Below, piece by piece: positions 29,937-47,898 of a stretch of DNA of 64,000 nucleotides (position 1 is the first letter of the stretch; each line of letters begins with the position of its first letter). The notes beneath the pieces are model-generated. The model saw nothing but the letters and a program-made list of their open reading frames with translations. It did no database searches and was not told the origin of the DNA. The stretch spans positions 813,128 to 877,127 of the forward strand of contig OZ240228.1 of NCBI GenBank assembly GCA_965197795.1. The letters are read 5' to 3'. A program made the position numbers and the translations under genes. Source of the stretch: Dehalococcoidia bacterium. Its GTDB lineage: Bacteria > Chloroflexota > Dehalococcoidia > DSTF01 > WHTK01.

Positions 29937-29939
29937 GTG

Positions 29940-30525: not shown

Positions 30526-30527
30526 CC

Positions 30528-33011: not shown

Positions 33012-33393
33012 ATGACTAGCGGGCGGATACCGAAGCAGAACGCCGACCGTCTGACGACGCATTCGTCGGAGGTCAACGAGGAGCTGCGGCTCCCCGGCAA
33101 AGTGCGTGCCCGGCAAGGTGCACCCACCGGCGGCTCCGGCCCACTGGCCGGAGAACGCACAGAAGTGGTATCGCCTGCTCCGGCGGTCGGGGCAAGCCGC
33201 GCTGCTCGACTACAGCGATTGGGCGCTGGCTTTGGCGGGCGGAGCTTCGAGAGATCAGCGCCGGACCCGACACGATTGGCGCGAGGATCGCTTCGCTTGC
33301 TCAATTGGTGTCAATGCCACGATCTCCCTGACCGCTCCTCATCAAGGTCAAACCGCTCTCCGGAAGCGTTGCCGGTCGCTGTCAGGGCCGTGA
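33012..33393 (+). pseudogene. phage terminase small subunit remnant (frameshifted by a 16-bp tandem duplication near 33100 and diverged at the 3' end)
   Basis: MTSGRIPKQNADRLTTHSSEVNEELRLPGKV matches the intact copy at 49511. ggcaaagtgcgtgccc is duplicated. The downstream frame gives HPPAAPAHWPENAQKWYRLLRRSGQAALLDYSDWALAL, then unrelated sequence. Confidence 0.5.
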
Positions 33394-34084
33394 CCCTCGC
33401 CCTCGAACGGGACTCCCCAGGAATTGCCTCTGCGCCGGGCGTGCACTCGGCGAGCACGGGGATGAGCGTCCTCAGGTGCGGGGTCAAGTGCGCCTCGTCC
33501 AGCAGTACCAGGCTATCGGTCCCCGCCATGGCGGCGTCTATTGGGCGCAGTGTCGATCCATAGCCGCGAAACAGGAGCCGTGAGCCGTACATCGGCAACG
33601 TACACAGGAGGACCGTCGGGCGTGACGGGTCGGCCGGCGCCCGCGAGGCGACTCCCCCGCGCAGCCGGATTACATCGAGCGCTGGTGCGGCTGGCAGGGC
33701 AGAAAGGGAACTGAGACGCTCCGCGACTCCGCCGAGAACATCTCTGGCATGTCCCGAGAGGCCGGCCGAACCGGGATCCGCGAGCACCTTCGCAAGTCTC
33801 TCGGCGTGTTCTGCGGTTGAGTCCACCAATAGGCGCCGGTTGACGACCCACCAAATACGGGTCGGTGCTGTCCGTTGCGCTGGCTCCCGATCCGCCTGCG
33901 ACGCAAGCCACCACACCGCGATGTCCAGGCACGCGGTCTTCCCTGCGCCTGTCGGAACGCCAACCTCTGCGGGCCACTCCTCGGTCTCAGCGACCCGTTC
34001 GGCCAAGCGCGCCTGCCAGGGAAAGGGCTCGCGCCCATTGATCGACCAGTAGAAGTCAGCGAAGGTCGGCGCGGGAGCCATCAT
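33311..34084 (-). pseudogene. cas3: Cas3 helicase (type I-G/I-U style, no N-terminal HD) N-terminal fragment of about 258 aa
   Basis: FADFYWSINGREPFPWQARLAERV...VGVPTGAGKTACLDIAVWW (Q motif and motif I). ...LRGG...TVLLCTLPMYGSRLLFRGYGSTLRPIDAAMAGTDSLVLLDEAHL matches the Cas3 helicase core. The ORF stops after ~258 aa where the terS remnant begins. Confidence 0.55.
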
Positions 34085-34119
34085 CGTTAACCGGGAAGGT
34101 GTTCGCTCGTCATGCCGGA

Positions 34120-34886
34120 CTACCGAGCGGTACGCAGAGCCCAAAGCCGCGCTGTCGCCCGGAGCCGATCGCGACCGGCCCTGAAATCGCTCCACTGAAC
34201 CACAGCTCGACGTGAGAGTAGGGAAGCGCTGGTTTGCCTGGTCGATTCACCTCCACGGGAGCGAGGTCGAGTGCACCCGGGACCAGCGCGGTACGCGATG
34301 GAGTGCATTAGTGCCGGGAACTGCGACCGGCTCACCGAGGCGCCGCGTTCGGTCCACTTCTTATACAGGAGGTTCCAGAGATCGAGATCTCCAGCCTGGG
34401 GCACGTTGATTACGGTGCTGCCGTCGTGATCTGGAACGAACGCGGCGGCACCAACAGTAGACGGGAGTGTCCCGGTCGTGACGCGGACGCGCACCGGCGA
34501 GTCCGAGGAGCCGAGGTAGCCACCCGGGCGGCGCGCCGACGAAGCGCATCAACGATCGCGTCCTCGCGCGGGTTCACCTCCCACGAGTAGCCAACGTGGG
34601 GATAGCGGGGGGCGACCCGCACTCCTGCGCGGCTGAGCGCACCCGAACGGCCCACGTACTCGTGGTGAGTCTCCTTGGCTGCGCTGTCCCCGTGCCGAAC
34701 GACGTACTGCGGCTGAAGCGGCTGGTGAAATGGTTTCGGGTCAGCATAGATGACCGGCGGCGGCAACTGCTCGAACCAATCCAGCTCCGCGCCATCGGTC
34801 ACTCGGCACGCCTCTCCCGTCCCGTCGGCAGCCACTAGTGCTGCGAACAGACGCACTGGAGACGGCTGCCACTCGCCACTGCTCAA
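34120..34886 (-). pseudogene. Csb2 (Cas5/GSU0054 family, type I-G/I-U) N-terminal fragment with an internal frameshift
   Basis: EWQPSPVRLFAALVAADG resembles the WPPSP.RLF.ALVAA signature of GSU0054/Csb2. The reading frame switches near 34495. Total coding is about 255 aa of an expected 500. Confidence 0.4.
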
Positions 34887-35237: not shown

Positions 35238-36349
35238 CTACCACTGCCACCAGACGCTGTCCCACTCGGCCCGGAGGTCAGTGGATGCCCTGGTGGACAT
35301 GACGTCTGATGCCGAGACGGTCTCACCTGGCTGCAACTCTTGGCCGCCTGGGACAGGAGCGAGCCTCCATTGCCGTCCGGTGGGGACGGTACCCTCCGAT
35401 ACGGCGAGTGTCAGCCGTGGCCCCTTGGTGGTGTCTTCAGCTTTGACGACCGTGCCCCTGACCGTCTCGCGGAACATGTCCCATTCGGGCCCGGTAGCTT
35501 TCAGGAACGGGTTGCAAGCGCCCCGGAACGGACAATGATCACATGTCTCCGCCGACGGACTTGCGAGCGAGCCTTCGGACGGTGACCGGCTAACGGCCTC
35601 GTTGAACTCTTCCAGTAGCCGGTAGGCCTCCCTGCCCTGCTCCTCCACTAGGGCCTTGTCCAGTTGGGCCGAGACCCTGGTGCCGTCCGTCCTCTGCAGT
35701 GAGACGACGTCTGGCCACTCACCGTGCTGGTCATGCCAGATGAAGGCGTATAGGAGCAGCTGCCTCCCGTAGCTGGAGTCCGGCCCGAGGGAGGGTTCCG
35801 GCCAGGAGACTCCGTTCTTGATGTCGACTAGTTCTAGCCGGCCGTTGCCTGACTCCACGCGGTCGACCCGTCCGACGAGAAGACCGTCCTTTGTCTCGGT
35901 CCACTCCTCGACGGCTACGCTGCCACGCGCCGGTTGCCCGCCCGCTTCCCGTGGGGCAACCCTCCGGCGGGCTACTTCTGATACTGCATTGACAAGCCTT
36001 ACCCTGGTCAGTTGGTACCTCGGCCAGCGCTCTGGCGGAGGTGGTTGGAGTCCGTCCGGTTCGGACTTTAACTCCTCAACGCGAGCGGCGATCAGTGCCT
36101 CCCACTGTGACCCGACTGCGGTCTCAACCGCGTCTTCATCTAAGCCGTCAAACTCCCCGCGGGCCAGCGCCTCATAGACCCCGTGCACCGCAGTGCCGAG
36201 TAGGGCCCACGTGGACTGTTGCTGCGCCGCTGCGAAGCCCTCGTCCAGGCCGAATGCCACGCGGAGCTGACAAGACCGCAGTCCTTCCAATGTGGAGTGG
36301 CTGGCCCGCTTGAGTGGTGCGAATGTGACCTCGCCAGGCCTTTGCAAGG
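35238..36349 (-). CDS. Cas4-like PD-(D/E)XK nuclease with a C-terminal Cys cluster (start uncertain, overlaps the DruE-like stop)
   Basis: LELVDIKNG (D/ExK) and CDHCPFRGACNPF (Cas4/AddB-type Fe-S Cys motif). It lies immediately downstream of the 1793-aa helicase gene on the same strand. Confidence 0.6.
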
Positions 36350-39300
36350 TTAGGATCCGTTGAGCCAGCTGATGATGTCCACCGAGTGGTGCAGGAGCGA
36401 GAAAAGGTCGGAGGCCCTGATCTCCTGCGCCCCATGCCTCACCATTTGATCCTCCGCCTCCGCCTGCTCGGCTGTATAGAAGGAGCTGTCCGACCGCCAT
36501 AGAGGGTGACCGAAGAAGACTGCGCGGTGGCTGTCCGGCATCGATGCTGTCCAGAGCCCCCCGACCTGGTCGACCTGGGCCTCAGGGAAGCACTCAGCGA
36601 AGCCCCGTACAAGCCGGTCTGCCGTAAGTTGCCAGCGGCTGAAGTCCAATGGCAGGCCCCGGACAAGGTCGTTGACGTCGAGCGCCAGCCGCCAGTCCAA
36701 GAGTGCGTGGACGTGCCGGTTGTCGTAGTGCCGTAGGCAGTCTGGACATGACGTGAGGCACTCGTCCGCGTGGTCCTTCCTCAAGAATCGGTCGCCCAAG
36801 TCCTCTTCGATCCGCTTCAGTACCGAGTTGAGTACTTCAGGTCGGCCTAACTGTGAGCAGTAACCCGCGCCGTTCTCTAGAGTGTCGGCCAGGAAGACCC
36901 GGGCCGTGGGCTCGTCGCCAGAGGACACTGGCTGGAGGCCGGCCCTGACCTCGAGTGGCCCGACGTCCAGCTCAGTCGTGGCCGCTAACCGGAAGACCTC
37001 AGCGAACGACCACAGGGCCGCCCGGCCGGCCGGCATGTGCGCCCGGTTCGTGGAGATCACGCCAGTCGGGCCTGGCAGGTCCTGGCTTTCAACCGTCAAC
37101 GTCAGGACATCGGTCGGGCTGATGCTCCCGATCGCGGCTGTGAGCGTAGGCTCCCGGCCCGTGAGTCCGGCGACTCGGTGCGGTACTTCCGTGTACGTGT
37201 CAGGGTCAGCCACGACGTAGGAGTTGTGGTCGAACCGGTGCATGGCGAACAGCTTTTGGTCGTTGTCGTTGATGCTGAACAGGTCTGCCCCCGGGATAAC
37301 ATCGGTAGTCGCCCCCCCGACGTCGAAGCTGTCTGCGCCCGTCGGGCCATACGCGAGCTGGGGGAACCCGGCGCCGTAGCCACGCTCTACCTCGTCGTCG
37401 TAGTCTCCGGGTTGGAAGTCAGTCCGGAACCCCAATGGTTGGTAGAGGTCGAATGAGTCCATCGCGCTGTCGCACGCCGGGCAGTCGTCACCCGCTGCCT
37501 CGGCGACTGTGACCGCCTGGCAGACTGGGCACCTCCTTACGTGGACTGGTGTGCCTAATGGGTTGGTGACGGGGACCGGGCGGCTCCCTACGAATTCCCA
37601 GGCCGCGAACCCGATGGCCCGGTGGAGCTGCTTGTCCTTCAGCACTTCCGAACCTGGGGCGAAGCTCGATATGGCGATGTCGAGTGCTCGGTCGGATACG
37701 GCTGCACCGTCGTCGAGTGGGCCGCGCGGCGGGCGGCCGTAGAGCTCCCTTACTCGGCTCGGGAAGCCGAACATCGGCAGGACGCCGGCGTTAGCTAACC
37801 GCTCGCTCAGCTCGGGTTGGATGTACGTCTCACTGTTGACTATCTCGTCGATCTTCGCGGCAAGGCCTTCCCGAGCCCAGGCTGATAGGACGGCGAGGTC
37901 ATCGGCACTGAGCCCTGTAAAGGCTGTCAGGCGTTGGACAGCATCGCCTGCTTCCGCAGCATGGGCCAGCCAAGGTACGACGGAGTCCCTGTACTTGGCC
38001 TGCCAGTCGCTTGCGGCGCCGAAAGCGCCGTGCGTACTGTCCCGGGTTTGCCTTGGTCTCTGGTCAGCGGGCACCTGGAGGAAAGCGAGCCGGAGGATTT
38101 CTGAGGCGATCACCCTGCGCACGATTTCGGCCCGGTCGAGGTCGAGGTAAGGGGGAGGTGGCGGGTCGCCTGTAATCCGTTCTGAGTGCAGGAAGTAATA
38201 CTCGTCGTGCGAGCGGTCCCGACACAGCGTCAGGGCGAACGAGAACGGCTGCCCTTTACGGCCGGCTCGCCCGACGCGTTGTTGGTAGTTGAACCGCTGC
38301 GGCGGCATATTGGCCATCATCACGGAGCGGAGCGAACCAATGTCGACGCCGACCTCCATGGTCGTCGTCACGCTGAGGACGTCAATCCCGTGTGTCAGGT
38401 CGGTTTCCTTCGGTTCCCCGAGGAAGGCTCCTTTGAACCTCCTCTGGCGGCCGCGTTGTTCACTCAGCGGCTTCGTCTGCCCTGTCAGCTCCTCGACTGC
38501 GAGGCGGCGAGACTCGTCGCGAGTGAGCCAGGTGAAGTAGTCCTCGTCTATTCCGCCGGTCCAGACTTCCAAGCTGCCACTACAACCACGGAACGTGCAC
38601 GCTCCCGCCGCCTGGTGCAAGTGGAGGCGCGTGCACTTTTGGCACTTCCAGAGCTGCTCCCCAGACGCCCTCACGACGCTGAGTGCGGCCATCTGGAGGT
38701 TCCAGTTGTCGTCGACTACGCCGGACGACCTAAGGGCGTTCTCGACTGCAGAGGTCAGTTCCCCTTGCCCTATGGAGTGGTTGGCCGCGGCCCTTGCAAG
38801 GTACAACCGGAGTGGTGGCGGGACAGTTGTAGACGGGTACTGTTCTCCTTCGCGCGGGTGCCGCCCCGCCAGGCCGAGTACCCGGACGCTCCCGAGTATG
38901 ACTTCCCGCGCGGCTGCGTCTGGCAACGGGATGTCTGCCGTGCTCAGACGGGACGGTTCCAGGTAGCCGAGCCCGATGGACTCAAAGTCTCTTCCGGCGC
39001 TGTCGAAGAGTAACGTGGCGAGGTAGACCTCAAGCTGTCGTCTCAAGTCTTCCTCGACCTGGAGGCTTTCAGCTGGCGAAAGCTGCTGCCATGTCGCTCC
39101 TGTCGGGGGAGGGAACGCCCTCCACCACTCGAGGCCCCGTGGCCGTTGGAGGCTCGCCTTGGGGCCGCCGGGGTTGACGCCCAGTGTTGAGAGGGCTTGC
39201 TCTACTTTGGCGAGGAGGTCTGTCCAGGCGAGCCGGTCGCCCCTGTTGCCCTGCTGGGACTCGAAGTCCTCTATGGTGAGCTTCGCCTCCTCGTCGTCAG

Positions 39301-41731
39301 GGACGCGGTTCAGGATCCTGTAGGCTGCCCACACGTCAGGCCAGGTCCTCGCGTACAGGCTCCGTTGACTCTCCTCGTCGGGGCTGAGGTCAGCTCCAGA
39401 CGAAGCCTTCCTGAATAGGTCGGGAGCAGCGACTACCCTCTCTAGTTCTTTATCCATGACCTGCCGGACCAAGTTCCGGAAGTGGTTGAGTTCGAGCCCC
39501 GCAGCCGTTTGGGCAGCATCGTCGCGGCTGTCGTTGAAGACAATGGTGCGACCATCTTCGGGATTTTCGCCCATGGAGCGGACGAGGCGGTCGAGGACGA
39601 CCTGGCCCACGCGGGCGAAGCCCGTGCGGTGGCCTCTTATAGGGCTGCGCACAACCCCCCGGAAGAATGTAGACAGCTGCCTACTGTTTGGCTGCTGTGA
39701 ACCGCAAGCGGGACAGACTTCAGGCAAGGCCGCCACCTTGTGCCGTTCCGTCGGTATGTCGGCCACGTTCATAAATGTACCGGTCGCCGGACCCGCGGCT
39801 CTCGTGAGCATGCCTAGGCGGGGGTCGTAGTCGGCACCCAAAAGCGAGAAGGTGGTCCGCTTGCTCACACCGGGAGCGGTATGGTGCCAGGGGTCGAGCT
39901 TGAGCTCTGGGTCGTTCTGCCGCCTAGGCCAATACCACATGAACTCGCCCCATGTCCGGCGGTTTACCAGTGCCGACTCTTTAGAGGGGACGTCGTCTTC
40001 GGTAGGGCCGAGGAACCACTCCGTTGGTTGTGGGTCGGCAGTCCGGACCGCGAATCCGCCCAGGGAAACGTCGCCGCACTGGTCGCAGTACAGGAGCTCG
40101 AGGACTCGTGAACCACAGGAGCAAGTCGGGGTCGGCCGTGAGTAGAGGCGCCCGACCCTCCGTTGCGGGGAGTGCCAGTCGTCCTGGCCCGGCGCGCTAC
40201 AGTTGGGGTTGCTGCAGGCCCAGACCCCTGGGACGTTCCGGACAAACAAATGGGCACGGAACGGTATGGCATCCCCACCAGACTGGAGTGCCAACCCATC
40301 GAGGACTGCGTTCAACGCCGACGTGTCCCCATCGGGCTTGGTATCGAAGATGAGCTCTTCGAGGTCTCTGAGCTTGCGTGGCTTGACCTGACCGTCAGGT
40401 CCGGTGCAGGCCACTGCGACGACTGTGGCCACTTCCATCTCTCTGAGCGCCTTCCGTAGTGTGTCACTGCGGATCTCCGGCCCGAGGGCGTCGATTTCTC
40501 GGAGCGCCTCTCGCGACAGCGGCCTGGCCGCCTTCAGCGCCCGTGGCACGCCGGGGATGACGGTGAAAGTAGAACGGTCTACGCCGAAGAACTGCTCGAG
40601 GTACTCGTAGCTCGACTCTGAAGACTCCGGCAATGAGGCGCTGGTGCCAATGCACCTCAGCTGTGGCGAGTCCGGTGTCAGCCCGAGCCTGCTCAGGAAG
40701 TTGCGCACTACTAGCGCGACCTCTGTTCCTTGGGAGCCACGGTAGGTGTGAAGCTCGTCGACTACCAGCGTGAAGACATTTGACTTGTCCTCGGCTAGCC
40801 AATCCCTGGTCGCCCGGAAGAGGTGTGCCTCTCTCTGCCGCATCAGCATCACGTTGAGCATCGAGTAGTTCGTAACGAGGACGTCGGGCGGGGCCAAAAG
40901 CATGTCCCAACGGGTCAGGAGTTCCCCCTGGGTCGGGTCCGGGAACTGTGACCATAGTTCGAGGTCAGATATGCCGATGTCCCGCGACTCTGCCTCTATC
41001 TTGCGGAGCTCGTTCATAACCTCCCGGACGCGCTCCGTCCCCGTGTGCTCTGGGAGGTCGCCGGGTCCTAGCGTGACGCCGGTATAGCGGCCGAAGTAGA
41101 AACGCCTCCCACTGGAGCGTTCCCCGAGTAGGACCGCCCGGCGGAGGCGGGCTATCTGGTCTTCGACCAGCGCATTGGTCGGGTAGAGCACCGCAGCGCG
41201 GACTGCTGCCGTCCGGCCATCGTCTTTCCGCACACCACTAAACGGCTGCCGTCCCCTGGACTGGTCCCACCATTTGTCTGGTTGGGGCGGGGCGGGCCAA
41301 TTGTGGCGTTCTGCTTCCGACAACAGGCGGGCGAAGACGGGCAAGAGGAAGCTCTCGGTCTTGCCAGAGCCCGTCCCGGAGGTGACGACGGGGTTGTGGA
41401 CACCGCTGTCTTGAAAGGCGGCCCGGAGTGATGCGGCCTGGTGCGGCCTCAGTTTGAAACCCCCGTCCTCGGCTGAAAAGAGCATCCGGCCCAGCGTGTC
41501 TGCGACTGCTTGGCTGAGGCCGACGTCGGCACAGACCTGGCGTATCGACTCAACCGAGTCGTAGGGCAAGACCGGTTCAAGGAGCGGGTCGGTGAAGATG
41601 ACGTCGTCTCGGCTGAGCAGGTCGCGCCGCTCGGCCCGGATGCCAGGGTCGTCGAGGCGGAAAGCAGTATCGTAGTACCGGAGGTAGGCCTCACGGACCG
41701 ATGTGTAGACAGTAAGGGGCTGTGGGTTCAC
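36350..41731 (-). CDS. DruE-like giant DEXH-box helicase with zinc ribbons and a DUF1998-like C-terminal region (1793 aa)
   Basis: Motif I VTSGTGSGKTESFLLP, motif II VVDELHTYRGSQGTEVA, helicase-C MEVGVDIGSL...QRVGRAGRKGQP. Cys4 clusters CSNPNC...CSCGS...CDQCG and CPVCQ...CPACD. Size and architecture match Druantia DruE. Confidence 0.7.
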   Translation of the reverse strand: MNPQPLTVYTSVREAYLRYYDTAFRLDDPGIRAERRDLLSRDDVIFTDPLLEPVLPYDSVESIRQVCADVGLSQAVADTLGRMLFSAEDGGFKLRPHQAASLRAAFQDSGVHNPVVTSGTGSGKTESFLLPVFARLLSEAERHNWPAPPQPDKWWDQSRGRQPFSGVRKDDGRTAAVRAAVLYPTNALVEDQIARLRRAVLLGERSSGRRFYFGRYTGVTLGPGDLPEHTGTERVREVMNELRKIEAESRDIGISDLELWSQFPDPTQGELLTRWDMLLAPPDVLVTNYSMLNVMLMRQREAHLFRATRDWLAEDKSNVFTLVVDELHTYRGSQGTEVALVVRNFLSRLGLTPDSPQLRCIGTSASLPESSESSYEYLEQFFGVDRSTFTVIPGVPRALKAARPLSREALREIDALGPEIRSDTLRKALREMEVATVVAVACTGPDGQVKPRKLRDLEELIFDTKPDGDTSALNAVLDGLALQSGGDAIPFRAHLFVRNVPGVWACSNPNCSAPGQDDWHSPQRRVGRLYSRPTPTCSCGSRVLELLYCDQCGDVSLGGFAVRTADPQPTEWFLGPTEDDVPSKESALVNRRTWGEFMWYWPRRQNDPELKLDPWHHTAPGVSKRTTFSLLGADYDPRLGMLTRAAGPATGTFMNVADIPTERHKVAALPEVCPACGSQQPNSRQLSTFFRGVVRSPIRGHRTGFARVGQVVLDRLVRSMGENPEDGRTIVFNDSRDDAAQTAAGLELNHFRNLVRQVMDKELERVVAAPDLFRKASSGADLSPDEESQRSLYARTWPDVWAAYRILNRVPDDEEAKLTIEDFESQQGNRGDRLAWTDLLAKVEQALSTLGVNPGGPKASLQRPRGLEWWRAFPPPTGATWQQLSPAESLQVEEDLRRQLEVYLATLLFDSAGRDFESIGLGYLEPSRLSTADIPLPDAAAREVILGSVRVLGLAGRHPREGEQYPSTTVPPPLRLYLARAAANHSIGQGELTSAVENALRSSGVVDDNWNLQMAALSVVRASGEQLWKCQKCTRLHLHQAAGACTFRGCSGSLEVWTGGIDEDYFTWLTRDESRRLAVEELTGQTKPLSEQRGRQRRFKGAFLGEPKETDLTHGIDVLSVTTTMEVGVDIGSLRSVMMANMPPQRFNYQQRVGRAGRKGQPFSFALTLCRDRSHDEYYFLHSERITGDPPPPPYLDLDRAEIVRRVIASEILRLAFLQVPADQRPRQTRDSTHGAFGAASDWQAKYRDSVVPWLAHAAEAGDAVQRLTAFTGLSADDLAVLSAWAREGLAAKIDEIVNSETYIQPELSERLANAGVLPMFGFPSRVRELYGRPPRGPLDDGAAVSDRALDIAISSFAPGSEVLKDKQLHRAIGFAAWEFVGSRPVPVTNPLGTPVHVRRCPVCQAVTVAEAAGDDCPACDSAMDSFDLYQPLGFRTDFQPGDYDDEVERGYGAGFPQLAYGPTGADSFDVGGATTDVIPGADLFSINDNDQKLFAMHRFDHNSYVVADPDTYTEVPHRVAGLTGREPTLTAAIGSISPTDVLTLTVESQDLPGPTGVISTNRAHMPAGRAALWSFAEVFRLAATTELDVGPLEVRAGLQPVSSGDEPTARVFLADTLENGAGYCSQLGRPEVLNSVLKRIEEDLGDRFLRKDHADECLTSCPDCLRHYDNRHVHALLDWRLALDVNDLVRGLPLDFSRWQLTADRLVRGFAECFPEAQVDQVGGLWTASMPDSHRAVFFGHPLWRSDSSFYTAEQAEAEDQMVRHGAQEIRASDLFSLLHHSVDIISWLNGS

Positions 41732-44700
41732 GAAGTCACCTTTTCCCAGAGCAGCGATGCGACATCAGGGGGTACAGCCTGGTAGACGGAAGCCCTGTCG
41801 GAGCGACTAACCGGCGGCAAGCCAGAACAGAGCGTGGCCACGCGTCCGTAGAGTCCCGGCAGTTCGCTTCCGGCCCGGACGACCAATTCCTCCTCGGCAG
41901 GACTGTAGCTACAGGCCGGAGCCTCCGAGAGAGTGGCTGCCCACAACTTGGCGAGACGTGTCTCAGCCTGCTTGTAAACCTTTCCGTCATAGACAGCTAC
42001 TACTCGGGGGTGGGCTGGGAACCGATAAGCCGCGGTTTCGGTCAAGTCTGAGCAGTCCTGCCAGCGGTTAGATGGGGGGTCGAACTTTTGGACACCGAAG
42101 CGGGTAGGCGGAGTGATCTCGCGGGCCTGGGCCATCAGAGAAGAGAAGGGTGGCAATAGGGCGAGGGCTTCCCTTGTCGGGTCGGCACGTGCAGTTATCT
42201 CGTGGCCCAGGTCTGAGAGCTTCTCGGTGACGAATTCAACCTGACCACGCGTCAGTCCCTCCACCCTGTACCTTTTGGGGCCGTTGGCTGGCCGGGTAGT
42301 AACCACGTTGCCGCCAGCGTCCGAGACTTCTTTTTCTAGCGCCTCGACCAGCGTTTTGCTGCGTCGTCCACACAGCACAGCCGAGCCAGCGTCTGAGGAG
42401 AACGCCAAGACGGATGGCGCGACTGACCATGCCGTTGGTCGCATTTCCGCGGCGGAGAGCGCGACGTCGATATGGCCTAGGGCGACGAGTTGTCTCATGG
42501 ACTCGACAGCAAAGAGCGCAGAGTCTTCCAACTGCCTGGCGAGCTTCTCAAAGCTGCTCCAGAGGCCAGCGCCCTCGTAGGAGAGAGCTTCCAGGAGAAG
42601 GTCGAAGTCTTCTCCAGAAGTCGTGCGTGTAATGCCGAGGGCTGGCAAGAGCCTTGGCCGAAGGTCACGACGAGAGGACGGCAGTACCGTCTGGGCGCCG
42701 GTCTTTGGACGTCTCCTCCGCGGACTCGGCGGGAAGTGCCGGGACTTATTGCAGTTCTTACAGTAACCAGAGTGGGGACGATAGAAGCCAGAGAGGTTGG
42801 TCACCGCCTGAATGACCCAGTGGTGGGCACCTGTCAGACAGCCTTGGGCCGCGAGGGAGATTGGGGCAGTCTGGATAGCAGGGAGCTCATCGACTTCGTC
42901 CTCTTCTGGCCAAGGTTGAAGCTCCTCGGACAAGGCTTCAGGAGGGAGACCACTTCTGTTGCTGACCGCCTCTCCGTCTGAGGTAACGAGGACCCCTGAC
43001 AAGCTCGCGTTAGGGGCAGAATCGCTTGAGGAGGCTGATATAGCGCCAACTGGTGGGCCCGATAGGTCGTGACCAAACCAGGCGGTTGATGGCCCAGGAC
43101 GGGGGTGGTCAGCAGACCTGAGTCGTAGGGAAGCACTCGCGACGACCCTACCTCCGTCCTCTAAGAGGGCCAAGAAGTCGCCTTCTCCTAATCCACGTCC
43201 AGACAACTGGAGGACCGTGCTGCTCTCTACTGGCTCTTCGGCCAGCGCCACTTCTTTCGAGCGGTGTCCGTCCAATTCGTCAGCGTAGACCGCCAGCTTG
43301 AGGGTCTTCGTGTCGTGTGCGTTGGCGATCACGTCAGGCGGAGCGGAAACCAACCAGACGCTATTCCTGAGGCGGACTCCACCGTGGAGCTCGACCGACG
43401 TCCAAGACAGAGGCATCAAGGGGGACAAGTCGAGGTCTGTGCTGTCGAGGAGCCCGAGCACCTGCACGCTTGAGAACAGCGTCCAGCCTTCGGGCCCGTT
43501 CACAACTGTGCCCTGCGTGTGCCTCTTATAGCCGTCTCGTGCTATCCGTGTCAGCACGTCCTCCACACGGTCGGCCAACCGGTCAACAACTAGGAGCAGA
43601 CACTCGCGACCGAGCTCGACATTTCCGGCTTCGACGTACTCCCCGAGCGATTCGTCTGAGGTGAGGACGACGACGCTGCGGGGGTTTCGGACTATTGAGG
43701 AATCACCCTGGGAGGACTTAAGGTCAACCGTCCCGAGCAGGATGTCAGGGATAGAGACCAGCTCCGCGTCTTCAACTTCCAGCCAGCCCTTCACTTCACC
43801 TGGCCGGAGGTGGACTTCACCGCCAAGCTCTGCGAAAGCCAGCTGGGCGGCTTCCGCGGAACCAGGCTGCAGCACAAAAGGGCCATTCTGGAGCGAACCG
43901 GAGTCAGAGACGGCGAGTGAAAGCCTGAGGGTAGGGTGCGGCAGTCGCCTGAAAGTCGCGACGAGCGACAGACGCGCCCTCCTCCGGAGCGCGCTGTCGG
44001 TGGATTCCCGTGACACGCCGTCCCAGGCCTTTAGCTCTCCGCCGGCGATCTCAGCTACTCGTTCCCGGACTTCTACCCGGCGCCACAGCCGCTTCACCGT
44101 TTGGCTTAGCTTCGAGTGAGGGACCCAGTCCTGTAGGAGCCTCAGCATGTCGGCCCGGCTGATTACTTGGCCAGGCCGCAGGTCGTAGGCATCGAAGAGG
44201 TCGGGAAATGCCTCCCTGTCCTGTTCTCTTAACAGGGCCTGGGACAAAGGGATGCTTACGTGTATGCGGTGGTCGAGAGGGACAGCGGTCGGTACTCCGT
44301 GCTCACTTTCTTGTTCCCGCATCCAGGCGTTAAGTTGCCTCCAGAACTGGTCAATGGCGGCGTACTCTTCTTCGACTGCCTTTCGTTGTGCTTCCTGGAG
44401 GCCTAGTCCTTCGGTCAAGGGGGTGTAGAAGTTGTTACCGGCGTGCTCCAGGGTGTTCTTCATCCTGGAGGCGACCAAGCAGAAGAACGCCAGCAGGCCA
44501 ATGAACAGCGGGTGTCCACTACGACCTTTACTTGCCCAGTCGTCGAGGAAGACTTGGTGCCAATAGAAGAGGTGTGACAAGTCTCCGCCACGGTCCAACG
44601 TAGCGAGGACTGCAGACTGGAAGTCATCAACTGACCCCAGCTCCGCGTATTCACCTATCTCATTCAGTACGTCTTCGTCTGTATCTAGATAAACCGGACG

Positions 44701-44805
44701 GTCTCGGGCCACATCAGGCGAAAAGTACCGCTCGAAGATCGCGTCGTTCCAGTGGAGGTAAGGCCTCCACGCATTGAGTACTGGCCCCGAACCGGACTCA
44801 CCCAT
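41728..44805 (-). CDS. DruH-like large protein of unknown function (1025 aa), translationally coupled to the DruE-like gene
   Basis: 4-nt overlap with the downstream DruE-like start. Size and position fit DruH of type III Druantia, but no diagnostic motif is recognised. Confidence 0.4.
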   Translation of the reverse strand: MGESGSGPVLNAWRPYLHWNDAIFERYFSPDVARDRPVYLDTDEDVLNEIGEYAELGSVDDFQSAVLATLDRGGDLSHLFYWHQVFLDDWASKGRSGHPLFIGLLAFFCLVASRMKNTLEHAGNNFYTPLTEGLGLQEAQRKAVEEEYAAIDQFWRQLNAWMREQESEHGVPTAVPLDHRIHVSIPLSQALLREQDREAFPDLFDAYDLRPGQVISRADMLRLLQDWVPHSKLSQTVKRLWRRVEVRERVAEIAGGELKAWDGVSRESTDSALRRRARLSLVATFRRLPHPTLRLSLAVSDSGSLQNGPFVLQPGSAEAAQLAFAELGGEVHLRPGEVKGWLEVEDAELVSIPDILLGTVDLKSSQGDSSIVRNPRSVVVLTSDESLGEYVEAGNVELGRECLLLVVDRLADRVEDVLTRIARDGYKRHTQGTVVNGPEGWTLFSSVQVLGLLDSTDLDLSPLMPLSWTSVELHGGVRLRNSVWLVSAPPDVIANAHDTKTLKLAVYADELDGHRSKEVALAEEPVESSTVLQLSGRGLGEGDFLALLEDGGRVVASASLRLRSADHPRPGPSTAWFGHDLSGPPVGAISASSSDSAPNASLSGVLVTSDGEAVSNRSGLPPEALSEELQPWPEEDEVDELPAIQTAPISLAAQGCLTGAHHWVIQAVTNLSGFYRPHSGYCKNCNKSRHFPPSPRRRRPKTGAQTVLPSSRRDLRPRLLPALGITRTTSGEDFDLLLEALSYEGAGLWSSFEKLARQLEDSALFAVESMRQLVALGHIDVALSAAEMRPTAWSVAPSVLAFSSDAGSAVLCGRRSKTLVEALEKEVSDAGGNVVTTRPANGPKRYRVEGLTRGQVEFVTEKLSDLGHEITARADPTREALALLPPFSSLMAQAREITPPTRFGVQKFDPPSNRWQDCSDLTETAAYRFPAHPRVVAVYDGKVYKQAETRLAKLWAATLSEAPACSYSPAEEELVVRAGSELPGLYGRVATLCSGLPPVSRSDRASVYQAVPPDVASLLWEKVTS

Positions 44806-44908
44806 GTTCCACCTGCAATGTCCGTAGTCGTTCTCCCACGATTAAGAGATTGACGAATGCTAATCGCACTTAAGTGGAGGCGTAAAGGACTGAAGGTTGG
44901 AAGGTTCG

Positions 44909-45601
44909 TTACAAGGAAGAATCGCAGATGGATGTCAGCGGACACACCGTGCAGGCGGGCCTCACGTAGCGGCAGACTGTCGAACCGAGGTCGAGCAGTG
45001 CCCAGTTGAAGGTCATGTGCTGTGGTTCAGGCAAGAGCGCAGTGGCGAGCTCCTGGACGGGGCTCAGCCGAGGGGTGGGGCCTAGTTGGTCTCTGAACAC
45101 GCGTCCGAGCACGCGGACTACATTCGAATCGACTACCGCTGAAGGGACGTCGAATGCAAAAGACAGCACTGCACGAGCGGTATAAGGGCCGACGTGAGGC
45201 AACGCAGAAAGCTCTTCGAAGGAAGCAGGGATACTCCCGCCGTGTTTCTCCATGAGGACGCCCGCAAGCGCCTTCAGCCCGACTGCGCGCTGGGTATACA
45301 GCCCGACGGGCCTTAAAACACCTGAGAGTTCGTCTATCGGTGCGCGTCCCAAGCTTGCTAAGTCCGGGTACTGCTCCAAGAATTCTGGGAACGCGCGGGC
45401 TGCTGCGCGTGCCGTCGTCCGCTTCAGAAGCAGTTCTGCAATAAGCACCTCGTAAGGGGGGATGCCTCGGCGGCGCCAAGGAAATTCTCGGAACGCTGAT
45501 GGAGCCCACGCCAAAAGCAAACAGGCGAACTCGCTCAACGCCTTCGACACCTGGGTCTGGTTGCCGTTCTCCCCCACGTGACGAGCATAGCCTGGGTTCA
45601 A
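44909..45601 (-). CDS. HhH-GPD DNA glycosylase (MutY/Nth-like catalytic domain with a [4Fe-4S] cluster; no MutY C-terminal domain)
   Basis: PWRR...PYEVLIAELLLKRT, LGRAPIDELSGVLRPVGLY.QRA, LPHVGPYTARAVLSFAF...DSNVVRVLGR, C.YVRPACTVCPLTSIC. Confidence 0.7.
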   Translation of the reverse strand: MNPGYARHVGENGNQTQVSKALSEFACLLLAWAPSAFREFPWRRRGIPPYEVLIAELLLKRTTARAAARAFPEFLEQYPDLASLGRAPIDELSGVLRPVGLYTQRAVGLKALAGVLMEKHGGSIPASFEELSALPHVGPYTARAVLSFAFDVPSAVVDSNVVRVLGRVFRDQLGPTPRLSPVQELATALLPEPQHMTFNWALLDLGSTVCRYVRPACTVCPLTSICDSSL

Positions 45602-45689
45602 CCAGCTGTCCCATGTTCATGCAGGACGGGCCCGAGAGCCGAACATTGTTAGAATTCCCCAGCAGTACCCTCGCTACAGGTGGTAAGAG

Positions 45690-46436
45690 ATGACGACGCC
45701 ACAGGCCTCAGATGCCGCCGAACAGATTGTTCAGAGCGTAATGGCTAAGTATGTGGACAAGAGAGTTGCCTACTACCGGGATACGTCACTGCTCTCGAAG
45801 CTACTCCAGAAGGATCACTTGATTTTCGCTCTAAAGGGCGCGAGCACTGTGGAAGAATGGGTCATTGAGGCCTTAGCAGCCCATGAGTCCTCCTCTGAGG
45901 AGACCGTGATGGGCAACGCATGGCAGCAGATCCTGACCGACCTTTCACAATCGGTAGGGGCGGGTGACCTCTTCGTGGAGAAAGCGGGGACGCTATGGGT
46001 CATCGAAATGAAGAGTCAGACCAATACCTTGAACTCGACGGCCCTCGCTCAGACGTTGCGCGTCCTGAAAACAAAAGTAATTGAGCAGTCCCGGGTCCAC
46101 GCTCCGGGGCGTCGGGGTGTAAGACCAATGATTGGAGTCATCCGAGGGCCTGCCAGCGACGTGGACAGGGTGTTCGTTGCGGCCTCACCGGAGAACCGGG
46201 ATATCGACGGCTTTCAGTATCACTATATGGTTGGTACACCGTTTCGGGCCTGGCTCACAGGTATCGCTAACCCAGCGCAGTTGGTAACGGACCTCGCCGA
46301 GACCTCGGAGCGAGTTTCCAACGCCCGCGCGGCATGTCGGCTGAGGTTGGCCGCTGAAATGGAAGCAGTCCTGGCTCAGGAAGGCCTAGCCAGCAATATT
46401 GAGTCCGTTATTAGGTTGGTTGCCGGCAAGCTTTAG
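45690..46436 (+). CDS. putative type II restriction endonuclease, convergent with the C5-methyltransferase
   Basis: PD-(D/E)XK-like GDLFVEKAGTLWVIEMKSQ. Tail-to-tail with the dcm gene (3-bp gap). Confidence 0.4.
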   Translation: MTTPQASDAAEQIVQSVMAKYVDKRVAYYRDTSLLSKLLQKDHLIFALKGASTVEEWVIEALAAHESSSEETVMGNAWQQILTDLSQSVGAGDLFVEKAGTLWVIEMKSQTNTLNSTALAQTLRVLKTKVIEQSRVHAPGRRGVRPMIGVIRGPASDVDRVFVAASPENRDIDGFQYHYMVGTPFRAWLTGIANPAQLVTDLAETSERVSNARAACRLRLAAEMEAVLAQEGLASNIESVIRLVAGKL

Positions 46437-46438
46437 GA

Positions 46439-47755
46439 CTAGATGCTTGCTTCTGCGTAGGCCTTGACCGCAGCTGGCTCCGGTAGAAGTTCGCTAGCTG
46501 GTTGGAGCGGCGGTTGCGTTCGCTCTCCGTGTCCCGTGTCCCTAGGCTCACCCTCCGAAGTTCTTATAAGTGCACGTCCGATGGCCTCCCCAAGGCTGAC
46601 CGGAACGGCGTTCCCCAGTTGTTTGTACTTGCTCGCCGTCCTTCCGGCGAGCAAGTAGGTGTCAGGGAAGGTCTGAATCCGTTTGTACTCTTGGACTGAG
46701 AGCGGCCTGGTCTCCGTCGGGTGACAAAGGCCGGTTGCTAGCTGCGCCGGGCTGGTCGTAACCGTCGGTGACGGTTCGTTAAGCGAGAGTCGCCGCCAGA
46801 AGCCGACCCTGCCGCCCGTGGACTGGAGTGCACCTCCCATCGCACGTTCTAAGAGGCCTTCGGCAAATAGGTCTGCGTTGTCCCTGAGGTGACGCCAGTT
46901 CCTGCCCTGCGGTATCAGTGAATAGACCCGCGCTCTAAATGGACTGTACGGCGAGAACTCGGGTGGCCCTAGCGGATCCGGGACGAATGCGTCTCCCAGT
47001 GTCACCCATGGCTGCCGTCCCTCTCCCGGGTGTGAGGCGATCAGCCGGCTTTTCTTGGTGCCCACAGGTGCGCCGTGGGTGGGGCGCACGAGGTCTTGTA
47101 CCGTGAGCGGCCGGCCGGCCTCCCCGAGGAACTCCTGCGACCTGAACTCGTGCTCGCGGCTCCCGAGGACGACCACGCGCGTCCGCCGCTGCGGCACGCC
47201 GTAGTCGGCCGCGTCTACAAGGCCGGCCACGACCTCATAGCCGAGGGCCTCAAAAAGGGGCCGGATAAATGACTTGTAGAGGCTCCCGAGCTCTTCACCG
47301 GGCTGGAGCGGCACGCTGCCTTTTCCCCTCGCTGACAAGGGGCGGTGTTGAAGTGCAGCGGACAACAGCCCTCGGACGTTCTCGAAGACGAAGAACCGGG
47401 GCATTGCAGTCTTTACTATTTGGAAGTAGTGGTCGACAAGCGCGCCCCTCGGGTCATTCAGCGACTGCCGGTGGCCAGCCGTCGAGAACGCTTGGCAGGG
47501 TGGGCCACCCGTCACCGTGAAGGCCTCGCCTTGCTCCAGGCCCGCGGCGGCAAGCAGTTCTGCCCCGTTAACTTCGGTGATATCTGAGAACAGGGCGTTT
47601 GATGGGATCTCGAAGTTCTGACGCAGCGTCTCCTGAGAGTCGCGGTCGACTTCGACCCAGGCATTGAACCGGAGGCCAGCGTTCTCCAGCCCAAGATCCA
47701 GCCCACCAGCACCGGAGAATAGCGAGATAGAAGGGTCGGCGGGGGACGGTAACAT
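46439..47755 (-). CDS. dcm: DNA (cytosine-5)-methyltransferase
   Basis: Motif I ISLFSGAGGLDLG, motif IV GGPPCQAFS, ENV, QRRTRVVVLG, TFPD...GNAVP. Confidence 0.85.
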   Translation of the reverse strand: MLPSPADPSISLFSGAGGLDLGLENAGLRFNAWVEVDRDSQETLRQNFEIPSNALFSDITEVNGAELLAAAGLEQGEAFTVTGGPPCQAFSTAGHRQSLNDPRGALVDHYFQIVKTAMPRFFVFENVRGLLSAALQHRPLSARGKGSVPLQPGEELGSLYKSFIRPLFEALGYEVVAGLVDAADYGVPQRRTRVVVLGSREHEFRSQEFLGEAGRPLTVQDLVRPTHGAPVGTKKSRLIASHPGEGRQPWVTLGDAFVPDPLGPPEFSPYSPFRARVYSLIPQGRNWRHLRDNADLFAEGLLERAMGGALQSTGGRVGFWRRLSLNEPSPTVTTSPAQLATGLCHPTETRPLSVQEYKRIQTFPDTYLLAGRTASKYKQLGNAVPVSLGEAIGRALIRTSEGEPRDTGHGERTQPPLQPASELLPEPAAVKAYAEASI

Positions 47756-47796
47756 CACTTGCCCTCTAGAGGGATAATTTAGCTCTAAGCGAGCCA

Positions 47797-47818
47797 CATG
47801 TCGATCTTTGCTTAGTAG
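47797..47818 (-). repeat. repeat unit half-copy (reverse A half only), copy 4
   Basis: aTGTCGATCTTTGCTTAGTAG, 78 bp upstream of forward copy 5. The two form a short inverted pair. Confidence 0.6.
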
Positions 47819-47898
47819 CGCGTCACCTTCAGAGTCAACGGGCGTGGAGATAGGCGTCGGAGCAATCTGGTCGGGGGGATTCGTATCTCGTGGAAACA

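What the first reader, a model, noticed from the sequence alone, without database searches (positions are those of the whole stretch)
35238..45601. Druantia type III-like pair (DruH-like 1025 aa and DruE-like 1793 aa) embedded in a four-gene co-directional cluster with an HhH-GPD glycosylase and a Cas4-like Fe-S nuclease
Gene order on the minus strand is MutY/Nth-like glycosylase, 1025-aa unknown, 1793-aa DEXH helicase with zinc ribbons, then a PD-(D/E)XK plus Cys4 nuclease. Start and stop codons overlap at the helicase/DruH junction and at the nuclease/helicase junction. Canonical type III Druantia is DruH plus DruE only. A tightly linked glycosylase and a Cas4-like nuclease are not part of the described system, as far as I recall. 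They could be accessory effectors of a variant system. This is the best candidate here for an undescribed defense architecture.
Basis: partly seen in the sequence, partly recalled or inferred. Interest (0 to 1): 0.8.

Follow-up and report, generated by a model that had tools for sequence, protein, structure and literature searches.

The report
Druantia type II operon beside restriction-modification module
This stretch holds a catalogued anti-phage system (Druantia type II-like: DruF, DruE helicase, DruK nuclease) next to an ordinary restriction-modification unit whose glycosylase probably repairs damage caused by its own cytosine methylase, so it is a new example of known kinds rather than a new defence architecture.

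Summary
The four minus-strand ORFs are real and their domain calls hold, but the interpretation needs correcting.

- **Type.** The 1025-aa protein is DruF (Druantia type II), not DruH. It matches PADLOC DruF2 over its full length (502 bits) and gives no DruH hit. The helicase is DruE2 (1630 bits).
- **Nuclease.** It is a genuine, conserved partner. It follows DruE directly in 8 of 35 related loci, and in all four nuclease homologues whose contigs I examined. It already has a PADLOC profile, DruK.
- **Glycosylase.** It is not a Druantia part.
  - Its closest relatives (55-59% identical) lie in the same methylase/endonuclease/glycosylase module in contigs with no Druantia genes.
  - It resembles Mig.MthI, the T:G mismatch glycosylase.
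  - In 9 of 35 Druantia loci a Vsr gene is present instead.
- **Methylase link.** 31 of 35 long-DruF loci carry a C5 methylase within 10 kb. None of 10 short-DruF loci does.

Verdict: a new member of a known kind, of modest interest. One thread is worth following: in 22 of the 31 methylase-bearing loci a predicted endonuclease gene accompanies the methylase.

The parts
35238..36347 (-). DruK-like PD-(D/E)XK nuclease with a Cas4/AddB-type Fe-S cysteine set, 369 aa. TTG start lies 2 nt after the DruE stop.
   Evidence: PADLOC DruK PDLC00060, 151.6 bits, full length; Pfam PDDEXK_1, 75 bits. Residues invariant in 9 homologues: C26, G51..H55, D162..E165, D175-x-K177, Q196..Y200, C269-x2-C272-x5-C278. 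The 369-aa product is on public record. It follows DruE directly in 8/35 loci and in 4/4 reverse look-ups.
36350..41731 (-). DruE: YprA/MrfA-like SF2 DEXH helicase with zinc-binding modules and an MZB (DUF1998) domain, 1793 aa.
   Evidence: PADLOC DruE2, 1630 bits over 4-1791; DruE4, 1510; DruE1, 571; DruE3, 389 (partial). Pfam DEAD, Helicase_C and MZB (23.3 bits). PDB 9wae_A helicase, 556 bits. Walker A 119-125, DELH 325-328, six CxxC pairs.
41728..44805 (-). Long-form DruF (DruF fused to a DruL-like C-terminal domain), 1025 aa. No enzymatic fold; 4-nt overlap with druE.
44806..44908 (-). 103-nt gap between the glycosylase gene and druF; a possible own promoter for druFEK.
   Evidence: Read from the sequence. 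No consensus sigma-70 site was found here, so a promoter is only inferred from the spacing.
44909..45601 (-). Mig-type (MutY/Nth superfamily) monofunctional HhH-GPD glycosylase with a 4Fe-4S loop, about 213-230 aa. Probable T:G (5mC deamination) repair enzyme of the R-M module.
   Evidence: Pfam HhH-GPD and HHH. PADLOC PDLC03398 'Type II nicking endonuclease', 110 bits over 12-214/221. PDB 1kea (Mig.MthI), 118 bits, full length; no MutY C-terminal domain. TIGR01084 mutY scores 154 bits against a cutoff of 286.5. E56, Y140, D158, C210/217/220/226. The nearest relatives lie in M/R/glycosylase modules.
45690..46436 (+). EcoO109I-like type II restriction endonuclease, 248 aa. Convergent with the methylase gene; the stops lie 2 nt apart.
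   Evidence: Pfam RE_EcoO109I, 37.4 bits (cutoff 22.5). D93 ... E106-x-K108. A gene of the same size, position and orientation occurs in L050-L053; the one in L052 has a weak RE_EcoO109I hit on record. The product is on public record.
46439..47755 (-). C5 cytosine DNA methyltransferase, 438 aa. It is the M of the R-M pair and the DruM-equivalent.
   Evidence: Pfam DNA_methylase, 188 bits; TIGR00675 dcm, 177 bits; PADLOC MTase_II, 268 bits, and DruM2, 230 bits. Motifs FSGAGG 13, PCQ 86, ENV 125, QRR 189, GNAV 381. 51-53% identical to the methylases of L050/L052/L053. The 438-aa product is on public record.
47776..47804 (-). Promoter-like site just upstream of the methylase start.
   Evidence: Consensus scan, 9 of 12 matches. 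The number of sites in the region is no more than chance gives, so this is weak.

Best explanation
The region is a composite of two known kinds of defence unit, joined through one enzyme.

**Unit 1 (44909-47755): a mobile type II restriction-modification module.**
- A C5 cytosine methyltransferase marks host DNA.
- A convergent EcoO109I-like endonuclease cuts unmarked DNA.
- A Mig-type HhH-GPD glycosylase removes thymine from the T:G mismatches that arise when 5-methylcytosine deaminates. This is the job Vsr does for Dcm.

**Unit 2 (35238-44805): a Druantia type II-like operon, druF-druE-druK.**
- DruF is a non-enzymatic partner built of winged-helix and Ig-like domains.
- DruE is the YprA-like helicase.
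- DruK is a Cas4/AddB-like Fe-S nuclease.

**Link.** The methylase most likely also serves as DruM, the self-marking component that type II Druantia needs.

**Shown here:** the identity of all six proteins, intact catalytic motifs, and the gene linkages across genomes.

**Inferred:**
- DruF/DruE engage unmethylated or end-bearing/single-stranded foreign DNA and unwind it.
- DruK supplies the nuclease activity. DruE of types I and II is reported to carry only an inactivated Vsr-like nuclease domain.
- The glycosylase acts on T:G mismatches.
For: **Profile identities**
- DruE2 1630 bits, DruF2 502 bits, DruK 152 bits, all full length.
- C5 methylase and RE_EcoO109I above their curated cutoffs.
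- The glycosylase matches Mig.MthI (1kea) over its full length. It has Tyr at the Mig Y126 / EndoIII K120 position and no MutY C-terminal domain (PMC2926615 for Mig's role in 5mC deamination repair).

**Neighbourhoods**
- Of 35 species-level loci with long DruF plus DruE, 31 have a C5 methylase within 10 kb. In L022 its start overlaps the DruE stop.
- None of 10 short-DruF (type IV-like) loci has one.
- 8 of 35 have DruK directly after DruE.
- 13 of 35 have a T:G repair gene: Vsr in 9, HhH-GPD in 4.

**Reverse look-ups**
- Four of four DruK homologues lie directly after DruE, behind a DruF (or a split DruF-like pair of genes), with a C5 methylase nearby. In the contig of P0146 the order is WYL, DruF, DruE, DruK, then Vsr and the methylase.
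- The glycosylase's nearest relatives sit in methylase -> <- 249-aa gene, (DndB), glycosylase modules without Druantia (L050-L052). In L053 such a module abuts DruK/DruE.
- Methylase and glycosylase identities track each other: 51-53% and 55-59%.

**Literature**
- Types I and II carry methyltransferase modules, and type I modifies the host genome (10.64898/2026.05.12.722862).
- DruE of types I and II has an inactive Vsr-like C-terminal domain (10.1101/2025.09.15.676423).
Against: - No experiment here shows defence, methylation, or any enzyme activity.
- The methylase scores slightly higher on a generic type II MTase profile (268 bits) than on DruM2 (230 bits). It clearly belongs to an autonomous R-M module, so its use by Druantia is inferred only from co-occurrence statistics.
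- No DruG-like gene is present, so the locus does not meet the four-gene definition of type II (DruM, DruF, DruG, DruE).
- The endonuclease's similarity to EcoO109I is modest (37 bits). It shows no significant pairwise similarity to the equally placed gene of L052.
- The T:G specificity of the glycosylase is inferred from family resemblance and context.
Confidence: 0.72

Rival explanations
1. Two unrelated systems that merely sit side by side in a defence island. The methylase serves only its endonuclease. DruF-DruE-DruK works without any DNA modification, like PADLOC's type IV Druantia.
For: - The M/R/glycosylase module exists on its own in other mobile elements.
- DruE also scores 1510 bits on DruE4, and the DruF C-terminus matches DruL4.
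- 103 nt and a divergent/convergent gene arrangement separate the two units.
- The window is a mosaic island holding other defence genes and decayed cas genes.
Against: - 31 of 35 long-DruF loci have a C5 methylase within 10 kb, against 0 of 10 short-DruF loci.
- The methylases belong to different lineages, yet one is always present.
- In L022 the methylase start overlaps the DruE stop.
- The M/R/glycosylase module recurs next to DruK/DruE in L053 in a different position and orientation.
Confidence: 0.18
2. One reading: a type III-like DruH/DruE pair extended by a glycosylase and a Cas4-like nuclease as accessory effectors, forming a new four-gene architecture.
For: - The four genes are co-directional.
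- The gene sizes resemble DruH/DruE.
- The nuclease is tightly coupled to the helicase.
Against: - No DruH profile hit; DruF2 matches end to end. DruE3 gives only a partial match of 389 bits against 1630 for DruE2.
- The glycosylase is absent from 31 of 35 related loci and lies on the opposite strand in the other 4.
- Its nearest relatives are in Druantia-free R-M modules.
- The nuclease already has PADLOC DruK profiles.
Confidence: 0.03
3. The glycosylase is an offensive enzyme, a base-excision 'restriction glycosylase' or a nick-maker. It damages foreign DNA and creates entry sites for DruE.
For: - PADLOC files the matching profile under 'Type II nicking endonuclease'.
- Restriction glycosylases exist (PMC10273834).
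- Type III DruE loads on exposed single-stranded DNA (10.64898/2026.05.13.724758).
Against: - The protein aligns over its full length with the repair enzymes Mig.MthI and the MutY catalytic domain, with repair-type catalytic residues.
- The module already has a conventional endonuclease.
- A Vsr repair nuclease is present instead in 9 of 35 loci.
Confidence: 0.05

Closest known systems
Druantia type II (DruM-DruF-DruG-DruE; Doron et al. 2018 as summarised in PMC8565338 and PMC13316683; called 'Type IV CoCoNuT' in 10.1101/2025.09.15.676423)
   Same: - DruE2- and DruF2-type proteins at full length.
- A C5 cytosine methyltransferase in the locus.
- The 4-nt overlap that couples druF to druE.
   Different: - No DruG, and no P-loop (CnuB-like) protein. 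The 650-aa NTPase that follows DruE in 12 proteobacterial relatives is replaced here by the DruK nuclease.
- DruF is the long form.
- The methylase comes with its own endonuclease and a glycosylase.
Druantia type IV (DruE-DruF-DruL; PADLOC, PMC8565338)
   Same: - The DruL-like domain is present, as the C-terminus of DruF.
- DruE scores 1510 bits on DruE4.
- DruK also follows DruE in a locus where two genes of 714 and 295 aa stand in place of long DruF, the sizes of DruF4 and DruL4 (L058).
   Different: Type IV is defined as lacking the methylase. Here a C5 methylase is present, as in 31 of 35 long-DruF loci. DruF and DruL are fused.
Druantia type III (DruH-DruE)
   Same: A large YprA-like DruE helicase paired with an upstream partner of about 1000 aa and no known enzymatic domain. 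The mechanistic work on DruE (3'-5' unwinding from exposed ssDNA) is the best available guide.
   Different: The partner is DruF, not DruH. DruE3 profiles match only partially. Type III DruE carries PLD-like nuclease domains and needs no methylase.
DISARM class 2 (DrmMII C5 methylase, DrmA helicase, DrmB DUF1998, DrmC nuclease)
   Same: The same logic: a cytosine methylase, a YprA-like helicase with DUF1998, and a separate nuclease. The methylase also matches DrmMII profiles (215 bits).
   Different: The helicase and DUF1998 are fused in one DruE. The nuclease is PD-(D/E)XK/Fe-S rather than PLD. The DruF partner has no DISARM counterpart.
Mig.MthI with the MthTI R-M system, and Dcm-Vsr
   Same: A repair enzyme for T:G mismatches encoded beside the 5mC methylase that causes them. 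The glycosylase matches Mig.MthI (PDB 1kea) over its full length.
   Different: That Mig.MthI lies next to an R-M system is from my own recollection of Horst & Fritz 1996; I could not read that paper here. The activity of the window's enzyme is untested.
Cas4 / AddB nuclease domain
   Same: RecB-like PD-(D/E)XK core with QxxxY, and one N-terminal plus three C-terminal cysteines (C...CxxCx5C).
   Different: It fails the Cas4 family cutoff (21 bits against 65). It has an extra C-terminal domain of about 90 aa. It is linked to DruE, not to cas1/cas2.

Membership tests
Druantia type III | Partner protein is DruH | tested here: not met
   No DruH profile among the PADLOC hits at E<=0.01. DruF2 matches at 502 bits, full length.
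Druantia type III | Helicase of the DruE3 type | tested here: not met
   The best DruE3 profile gives 389 bits in 5 partial stretches, against 1630 bits in one full-length stretch for DruE2.
Druantia type II | DruE with helicase core and DUF1998/MZB | tested here: met
   DruE2, 1630 bits. Pfam DEAD and Helicase_C above cutoff. MZB at 23.3 bits, just under its 24.2 cutoff.
Druantia type II | DruF | tested here: met
   PDLC00023, 501.8 bits, covering 11-1020 of 1025 aa and 4-1006 of 1011 profile positions.
Druantia type II | DruM cytosine methyltransferase in the locus | tested here: met
   A C5 methylase lies 1.6 kb upstream of druF. DruM2 profile 230 bits, but a generic MTase_II profile scores 268 bits. 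Its use by Druantia is inferred from 31/35 against 0/10 co-occurrence.
Druantia type II | DruG | tested here: not met
   None of the six genes hits a DruG profile. The gaps in the operon (2, 103 and 88 nt) leave no room for another gene.
Druantia type IV (PADLOC) | DruE + DruF + DruL and no methylase | tested here: not met
   A DruL-like domain is present but fused to DruF (64 bits). A C5 methylase is present in the locus.
PADLOC DruK | PD-(D/E)XK nuclease matching the DruK profile and encoded next to DruE | tested here: met
   151.6 bits over 3-346 of 347 profile positions. The start lies 2 nt after the DruE stop. The same position is seen in 8/35 loci and in 4/4 reverse look-ups.
Cas4 | Score above the TIGR00372 cutoff | tested here: not met
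   21 bits against a cutoff of 65. The fold and Fe-S cysteine pattern are shared, the family is not.
MutY (A/G-specific adenine glycosylase) | Score above the TIGR01084 cutoff and a C-terminal 8-oxoG-recognition domain | tested here: not met
   154 bits against a cutoff of 286.5. The protein ends at the Fe-S loop (230 aa) and aligns only to the catalytic domain of MutY structures.
Mig-type T:G mismatch glycosylase | Catalytic-domain-only MutY/Nth relative with catalytic Asp, no catalytic Lys, a 4Fe-4S loop, encoded beside a 5mC methylase | tested here: met
   1kea aligned over 24-227 at 118 bits. D158, Y140 (at the Mig Y126 position), C210-C226. A methylase lies in the same module here and in L050-L053.
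Mig-type T:G mismatch glycosylase | Excises T (or U) opposite G | not testable with these tools
   Needs a glycosylase assay on T:G oligonucleotides.
Type II restriction-modification system | Methyltransferase with an adjacent endonuclease of a known type II family | tested here: met
   RE_EcoO109I, 37.4 bits (cutoff 22.5), with D93...E106-x-K108, convergent with the C5 methylase. The recognition site is unknown. RGGNCCY occurs 66 times against 90 +/- 10 expected, a weak depletion.
Anti-phage defence system (any) | Protects against phage | not testable with these tools
As far as the papers read show, type II Druantia has no published mechanism.

The most novel reading that the evidence does not exclude
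In this Druantia clade the helicase module may not merely borrow a methylase. It may be functionally coupled to a complete restriction-modification pair.

- Proposed mechanism: the endonuclease makes the first cuts in unmethylated DNA. DruF/DruE load on the resulting ends or single-stranded regions. DruK, or another nuclease in other loci, then destroys the fragments.
- Support: a predicted endonuclease gene accompanies the methylase in 22 of the 31 methylase-bearing long-DruF loci. These are MvaI/BcnI x9, GmrSD-like x5, AspBHI-like x2, and one each of NgoMIV, SacI, DUF4420, GIY-YIG, HNH and Mrr. The window's EcoO109I-like enzyme fits this pattern.
- I did not find this stated in the papers I read.
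Probability: 0.2. Interest if true: 0.6.

Novelty: new member of a known kind. Interest (0 to 1): 0.3.

Why it matters
Type II Druantia has no published mechanism. This locus and its 35 relatives offer three concrete handles on it:

- A dedicated Fe-S nuclease, DruK. It is named in PADLOC-DB, but my full-text search found no paper that mentions it. It may supply the nuclease activity that DruE of types I and II is reported to lack.
- A near-obligatory C5 methylase, which points to modification-based discrimination of self from non-self.
- A frequent endonuclease partner for that methylase.

For annotation, the lesson is practical. A MutY-like gene next to a defence operon is best read as the deamination-repair companion of a nearby 5mC methylase, not as a defence effector.

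Tried and rejected
- **Literature on DruK.** A full-text search for 'Druantia' plus 'DruK' found no paper. The PADLOC paper and its supplements do not mention DruK. Its status as 'known' therefore rests only on the profile names in PADLOC-DB.
- **Source contig.** The window's own DruF is not on record as a called gene, so the contig and organism could not be retrieved. The cluster look-up gave no names or accessions.
- **Genome scan query.** The 18-sequence DruF alignment was too divergent to seed the scan. A 7-sequence subset worked.
- **Endonuclease.** No PDB relative by sequence, no significant pairwise similarity to the equally placed L052 gene, and no phmmer hit in the 47 loci. Its assignment rests on the Pfam hit, the D...ExK motif and its conserved position.
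- **DruK against PDB by sequence.** No hit.
- **DruF.**
  - The profile found nothing meaningful in PDB.
  - No AAA+/McrB-like fold was seen. DruF is therefore probably not the 'inactivated CnuB homologue' that Bell et al. report in type II operons. The 650-aa P-loop protein of the proteobacterial loci is the better candidate, but it is absent from this window.
- **RNA genes.** tRNA scan and Rfam found nothing in the window.
- **Promoters and terminators.** The scan found no more than chance gives.
- **RGGNCCY counts.** Only a weak depletion, and the enzyme's true site is unknown.
- **Horst & Fritz 1996 (PMC452288).** Could not be read.

Full report
**What is in the sequence**

- The 1025-aa stop and the 1793-aa start overlap by four bases.
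- The nuclease most likely starts at TTG 36347, two bases after the helicase stop. That 369-aa product is the one on public record, while the 420-aa form is not. The matching profile also begins only at residue 67 of the long ORF.
- The glycosylase is separated from the 1025-aa gene by 103 nt, and its start codon is uncertain.

- Glycosylase: HhH-GPD plus a 4Fe-4S loop.
- Helicase: a DEXH helicase with several CxxC pairs and a marginal MZB/DUF1998 hit.
- Nuclease: a PD-(D/E)XK nuclease with one N-terminal and three C-terminal cysteines.

Two genes lie directly upstream, outside the given coordinates.

- A 248-aa + strand gene (45690-46436) matches the EcoO109I restriction endonuclease family above Pfam's cutoff. 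It has a D...ExK motif.
- Convergent with it, with stops two bases apart, is a C5 cytosine DNA methyltransferase carrying all the classical motifs (46439-47755). Its 438-aa product is on public record.

**Which Druantia type**

Against the PADLOC profiles:

| Protein | Best match | Other matches |
|---|---|---|
| Helicase (1793 aa) | DruE2, 1630 bits, one stretch over the whole protein | DruE4 1510; DruE1 571; DruE3 389 (partial only) |
| 1025-aa protein | DruF2, 502 bits, end to end | C-terminal 290 residues match DruL4; no DruH hit |
| Nuclease | DruK, 152 bits, full length (described as 'PD-(D/E)XK nuclease superfamily') | weak Cas4 hits (26 and 21 bits) |

The pair is therefore DruF/DruE of the type II lineage, not the type III DruH/DruE pair. 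The nuclease partner is already catalogued, although I found no paper that mentions DruK. PADLOC's paper defines type II as DruM-F-G-E and type IV as DruE-DruF-DruL without a methylase.

**What the glycosylase is**

- It aligns over its full length with Mig.MthI (PDB 1kea, 'possible G-T mismatches repair enzyme') and with the catalytic domain of MutY.
- It stops at the Fe-S loop, so it lacks MutY's C-terminal domain. It scores well below the MutY and Nth family cutoffs.
- It has the catalytic Asp (D158). It has Tyr (Y140) where EndoIII has its lyase lysine and Mig has Y126, so it should be monofunctional (PMC2926615).
- PADLOC's matching profile (110 bits) sits among R-M components as a 'Type II nicking endonuclease'.

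**Related loci**

DruF homologues are rare and divergent: 18 proteins, at most 34% identical. A scan of one genome per species gave 47 loci. I called ORFs in them and searched these with the window's proteins. Thirty-five loci have a long (about 1000 aa) DruF followed by DruE.

| Feature in the 35 long-DruF loci | Count |
|---|---|
| C5 methyltransferase within 10 kb | 31 |
| DruK directly after DruE | 8 |
| 650-aa P-loop protein directly after DruE | 12 |
| T:G repair gene (Vsr 9, HhH-GPD glycosylase 4) | 13 |

- The methylases come from several different lineages and lie on either side and either strand. In L022 the methylase start overlaps the DruE stop.
- None of the 10 loci with a short, type IV-like DruF has a C5 methylase within 10 kb. 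This serves as an internal control.
- The eight DruK loci are all Actinomycetota or Chloroflexota. The twelve P-loop loci are Proteobacteria.
- All four glycosylase genes lie on the strand opposite to DruF. The co-directional four-gene arrangement of the window is therefore not conserved.

**Reverse checks**

- *DruK.* I examined four DruK homologues on contigs long enough to read. All lie directly after DruE, behind a long DruF (three contigs) or, in L058, two genes of 714 and 295 aa, the sizes of DruF4 and DruL4. Each has a C5 methylase nearby. In one contig the order is WYL regulator, DruF, DruE, DruK, then Vsr and the methylase. DruK is thus a dedicated Druantia companion.
- *DruK residues.* An alignment of nine DruK proteins keeps the N-terminal Cys, G..H, D..E, D-x-K, Q...Y and CxxCx5C invariant. 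This is the Cas4/AddB pattern.
- *Glycosylase.* Its closest relatives (55-59% identical) sit in a recurring module: C5 methylase, a convergent gene of about 249 aa (with a weak RE_EcoO109I hit in L052), sometimes a DndB-like gene, then the glycosylase. Three such contigs carry recombinases and no Druantia genes (L050-L052).
- *Co-inheritance.* The methylases of these modules are 51-53% identical to the window's. Methylase and glycosylase are therefore inherited together.
- *A second junction.* In L053 the same module abuts DruK and DruE in a different position and orientation. In L004 a related glycosylase lies next to an NgoMIV-family endonuclease on the far side of DruK.

**Reading**

The window holds a mobile type II R-M module with a built-in T:G repair enzyme, placed next to a druF-druE-druK operon. 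Nearly every long-DruF locus has some C5 methylase, so the methylase probably doubles as DruM.

- A recent preprint states that types I and II carry methyltransferase modules and that type I modifies the host genome (10.64898/2026.05.12.722862).
- Another reports that DruE of types I and II has only an inactivated Vsr-like nuclease domain (10.1101/2025.09.15.676423). That gives a rationale for a separate nuclease.
- Work on type III shows DruE unwinding 3'-5' from exposed single-stranded DNA (10.64898/2026.05.13.724758).

From these I infer the following, none of which is shown here. DruF/DruE engage foreign DNA that is unmethylated or has ends or single-stranded regions. DruK degrades that DNA. 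The glycosylase only limits the mutational cost of 5mC.

**DruF itself**

An AlphaFold2 model from 18 sequences (pLDDT 75.9, pTM 0.72) shows four regions:

- a helical N-terminal domain;
- Ig-like beta-sandwich domains;
- a disordered Cys-containing linker;
- C-terminal winged-helix domains.

**An unplanned observation**

In 22 of the 31 methylase-bearing long-DruF loci a predicted endonuclease gene accompanies the methylase:

| Endonuclease family | Loci |
|---|---|
| MvaI/BcnI | 9 |
| GmrSD-like | 5 |
| AspBHI-like | 2 |
| NgoMIV, SacI, DUF4420, GIY-YIG, HNH, Mrr | 1 each |

The window's EcoO109I-like gene fits this pattern. The helicase module may be functionally coupled to a whole R-M pair, and not only to the methylase. 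I rate this as possible but unproven. Defence islands also gather such genes by chance, and several of the partners are modification-dependent enzymes that would not fit a simple shared-methylase scheme.

**Context**

The block sits in a mosaic, lower-GC mobile region containing:

- a serine recombinase and an integrase-like gene at 16.5-20.7 kb;
- an AriA/OLD-like ATPase;
- an HNH gene;
- truncated type I-G cas3 and cas5/6 fragments just downstream of druK;
- phage terminase small-subunit genes.

A direct repeat of about 1.2 kb (32006-33230 and 48720-49713) brackets the 16.5-kb stretch that holds the cas fragments, Druantia and the R-M module.

**Verdict**

It is a type II-lineage Druantia of the DruK-bearing, long-DruF form, lacking DruG, next to a standard R-M plus repair module. 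I rate it a new member of a known kind, with interest about 0.3. That score comes mainly from DruK, the near-obligatory methylase and the frequent endonuclease partner, which give testable leads into the unknown mechanism of type II Druantia.

Noticed in passing
window 32006-33230 and 48720-49713 (also 50290-50363; inverted partial copy 58011-58239): A direct repeat of about 1.2 kb (77-97% identical in blocks) brackets the 16.5-kb stretch holding the cas fragments, Druantia and the R-M module. The right copy continues into an intact Terminase_7 small-subunit gene (49391-49939). The left copy is only the truncated 5' part. This looks like recombination between two related phage-like elements, or a tandem insertion.
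   Followed up: partly
window 30508-30581, 32082-32143, 47898-47974, 48720-48781, 58178-58241: A unit of about 62 nt (ACTAAGCAAAGATCGACAGTC ... GACTCCGAAGATCGATAGTC) occurs five times in both orientations at the edges of several modules. No Rfam family matches it. Its function is unknown.
   Followed up: no
window 33311-34886 (-): N-terminal fragments of type I-G/I-U Cas3 (first ~230 of 836 profile positions) and Cas5/6 (Csb2) lie directly downstream of druK. This is a decayed CRISPR-Cas locus with no array detected nearby.
   Followed up: partly
window 26047-31315 (-): More defence-type genes lie downstream: a 567-aa AAA_21/OLD-like ATPase with AriA/AriAB and PtuA profile hits, an RNase H-like/AAA_11 protein (MkoA-like), and an HNH protein with weak PtuB hits.
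   Followed up: no
window 16500-20669 (-), GC shift near 17500: A large serine recombinase (16500-18086) and an integrase-like gene (19392-20669, below Pfam's cutoff) sit where GC falls from about 0.65 to about 0.59. This is a likely boundary of the mobile region that carries the island.
   Followed up: no
L013, L014, L020, L023-L025, L027/L059, L028, L037; also L004, L005, L015, L016, L035, L006, L012, L011, L017, L018, L030, L033, L001: In 22 of the 31 methylase-bearing long-DruF Druantia loci the C5 methylase is accompanied by a predicted endonuclease. The families are MvaI/BcnI x9, GmrSD-like x5, AspBHI-like x2, and NgoMIV, SacI, DUF4420, GIY-YIG, HNH and Mrr once each. I did not find this stated in the papers read.
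   Followed up: partly
proteins P0049-P0116 (relatives of the glycosylase): Many close relatives of the glycosylase (about 290 aa) carry an N-terminal Xre-type HTH (HTH_3/HTH_31) fused to the HhH-GPD domain. This is reminiscent of R-M controller proteins.
   Followed up: no
L007, L012-L015, L020, L023-L025, L027, L028, L037 (gene directly after DruE): A conserved 634-675-aa protein with weak P-loop NTPase hits (nSTAND_NTPase5, AAA_19) follows DruE in 12 proteobacterial loci, where actinobacterial loci have DruK. It matches no PADLOC Druantia profile. It may be the 'inactivated CnuB homologue' of Bell et al..
   Followed up: partly
L048 9800-19100: A multiply frameshifted, evidently decayed DruF-DruE-DruK locus in an uncultured actinomycete, with methylase and Vsr fragments upstream.
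   Followed up: no
window 48388-48846 (+): An ORF resembling the C-terminal DNA-binding half of an OmpR/PhoB-type response regulator, apparently truncated, lies at the right edge of the island. This was judged by eye from the translation and not scanned against profiles.
   Followed up: no
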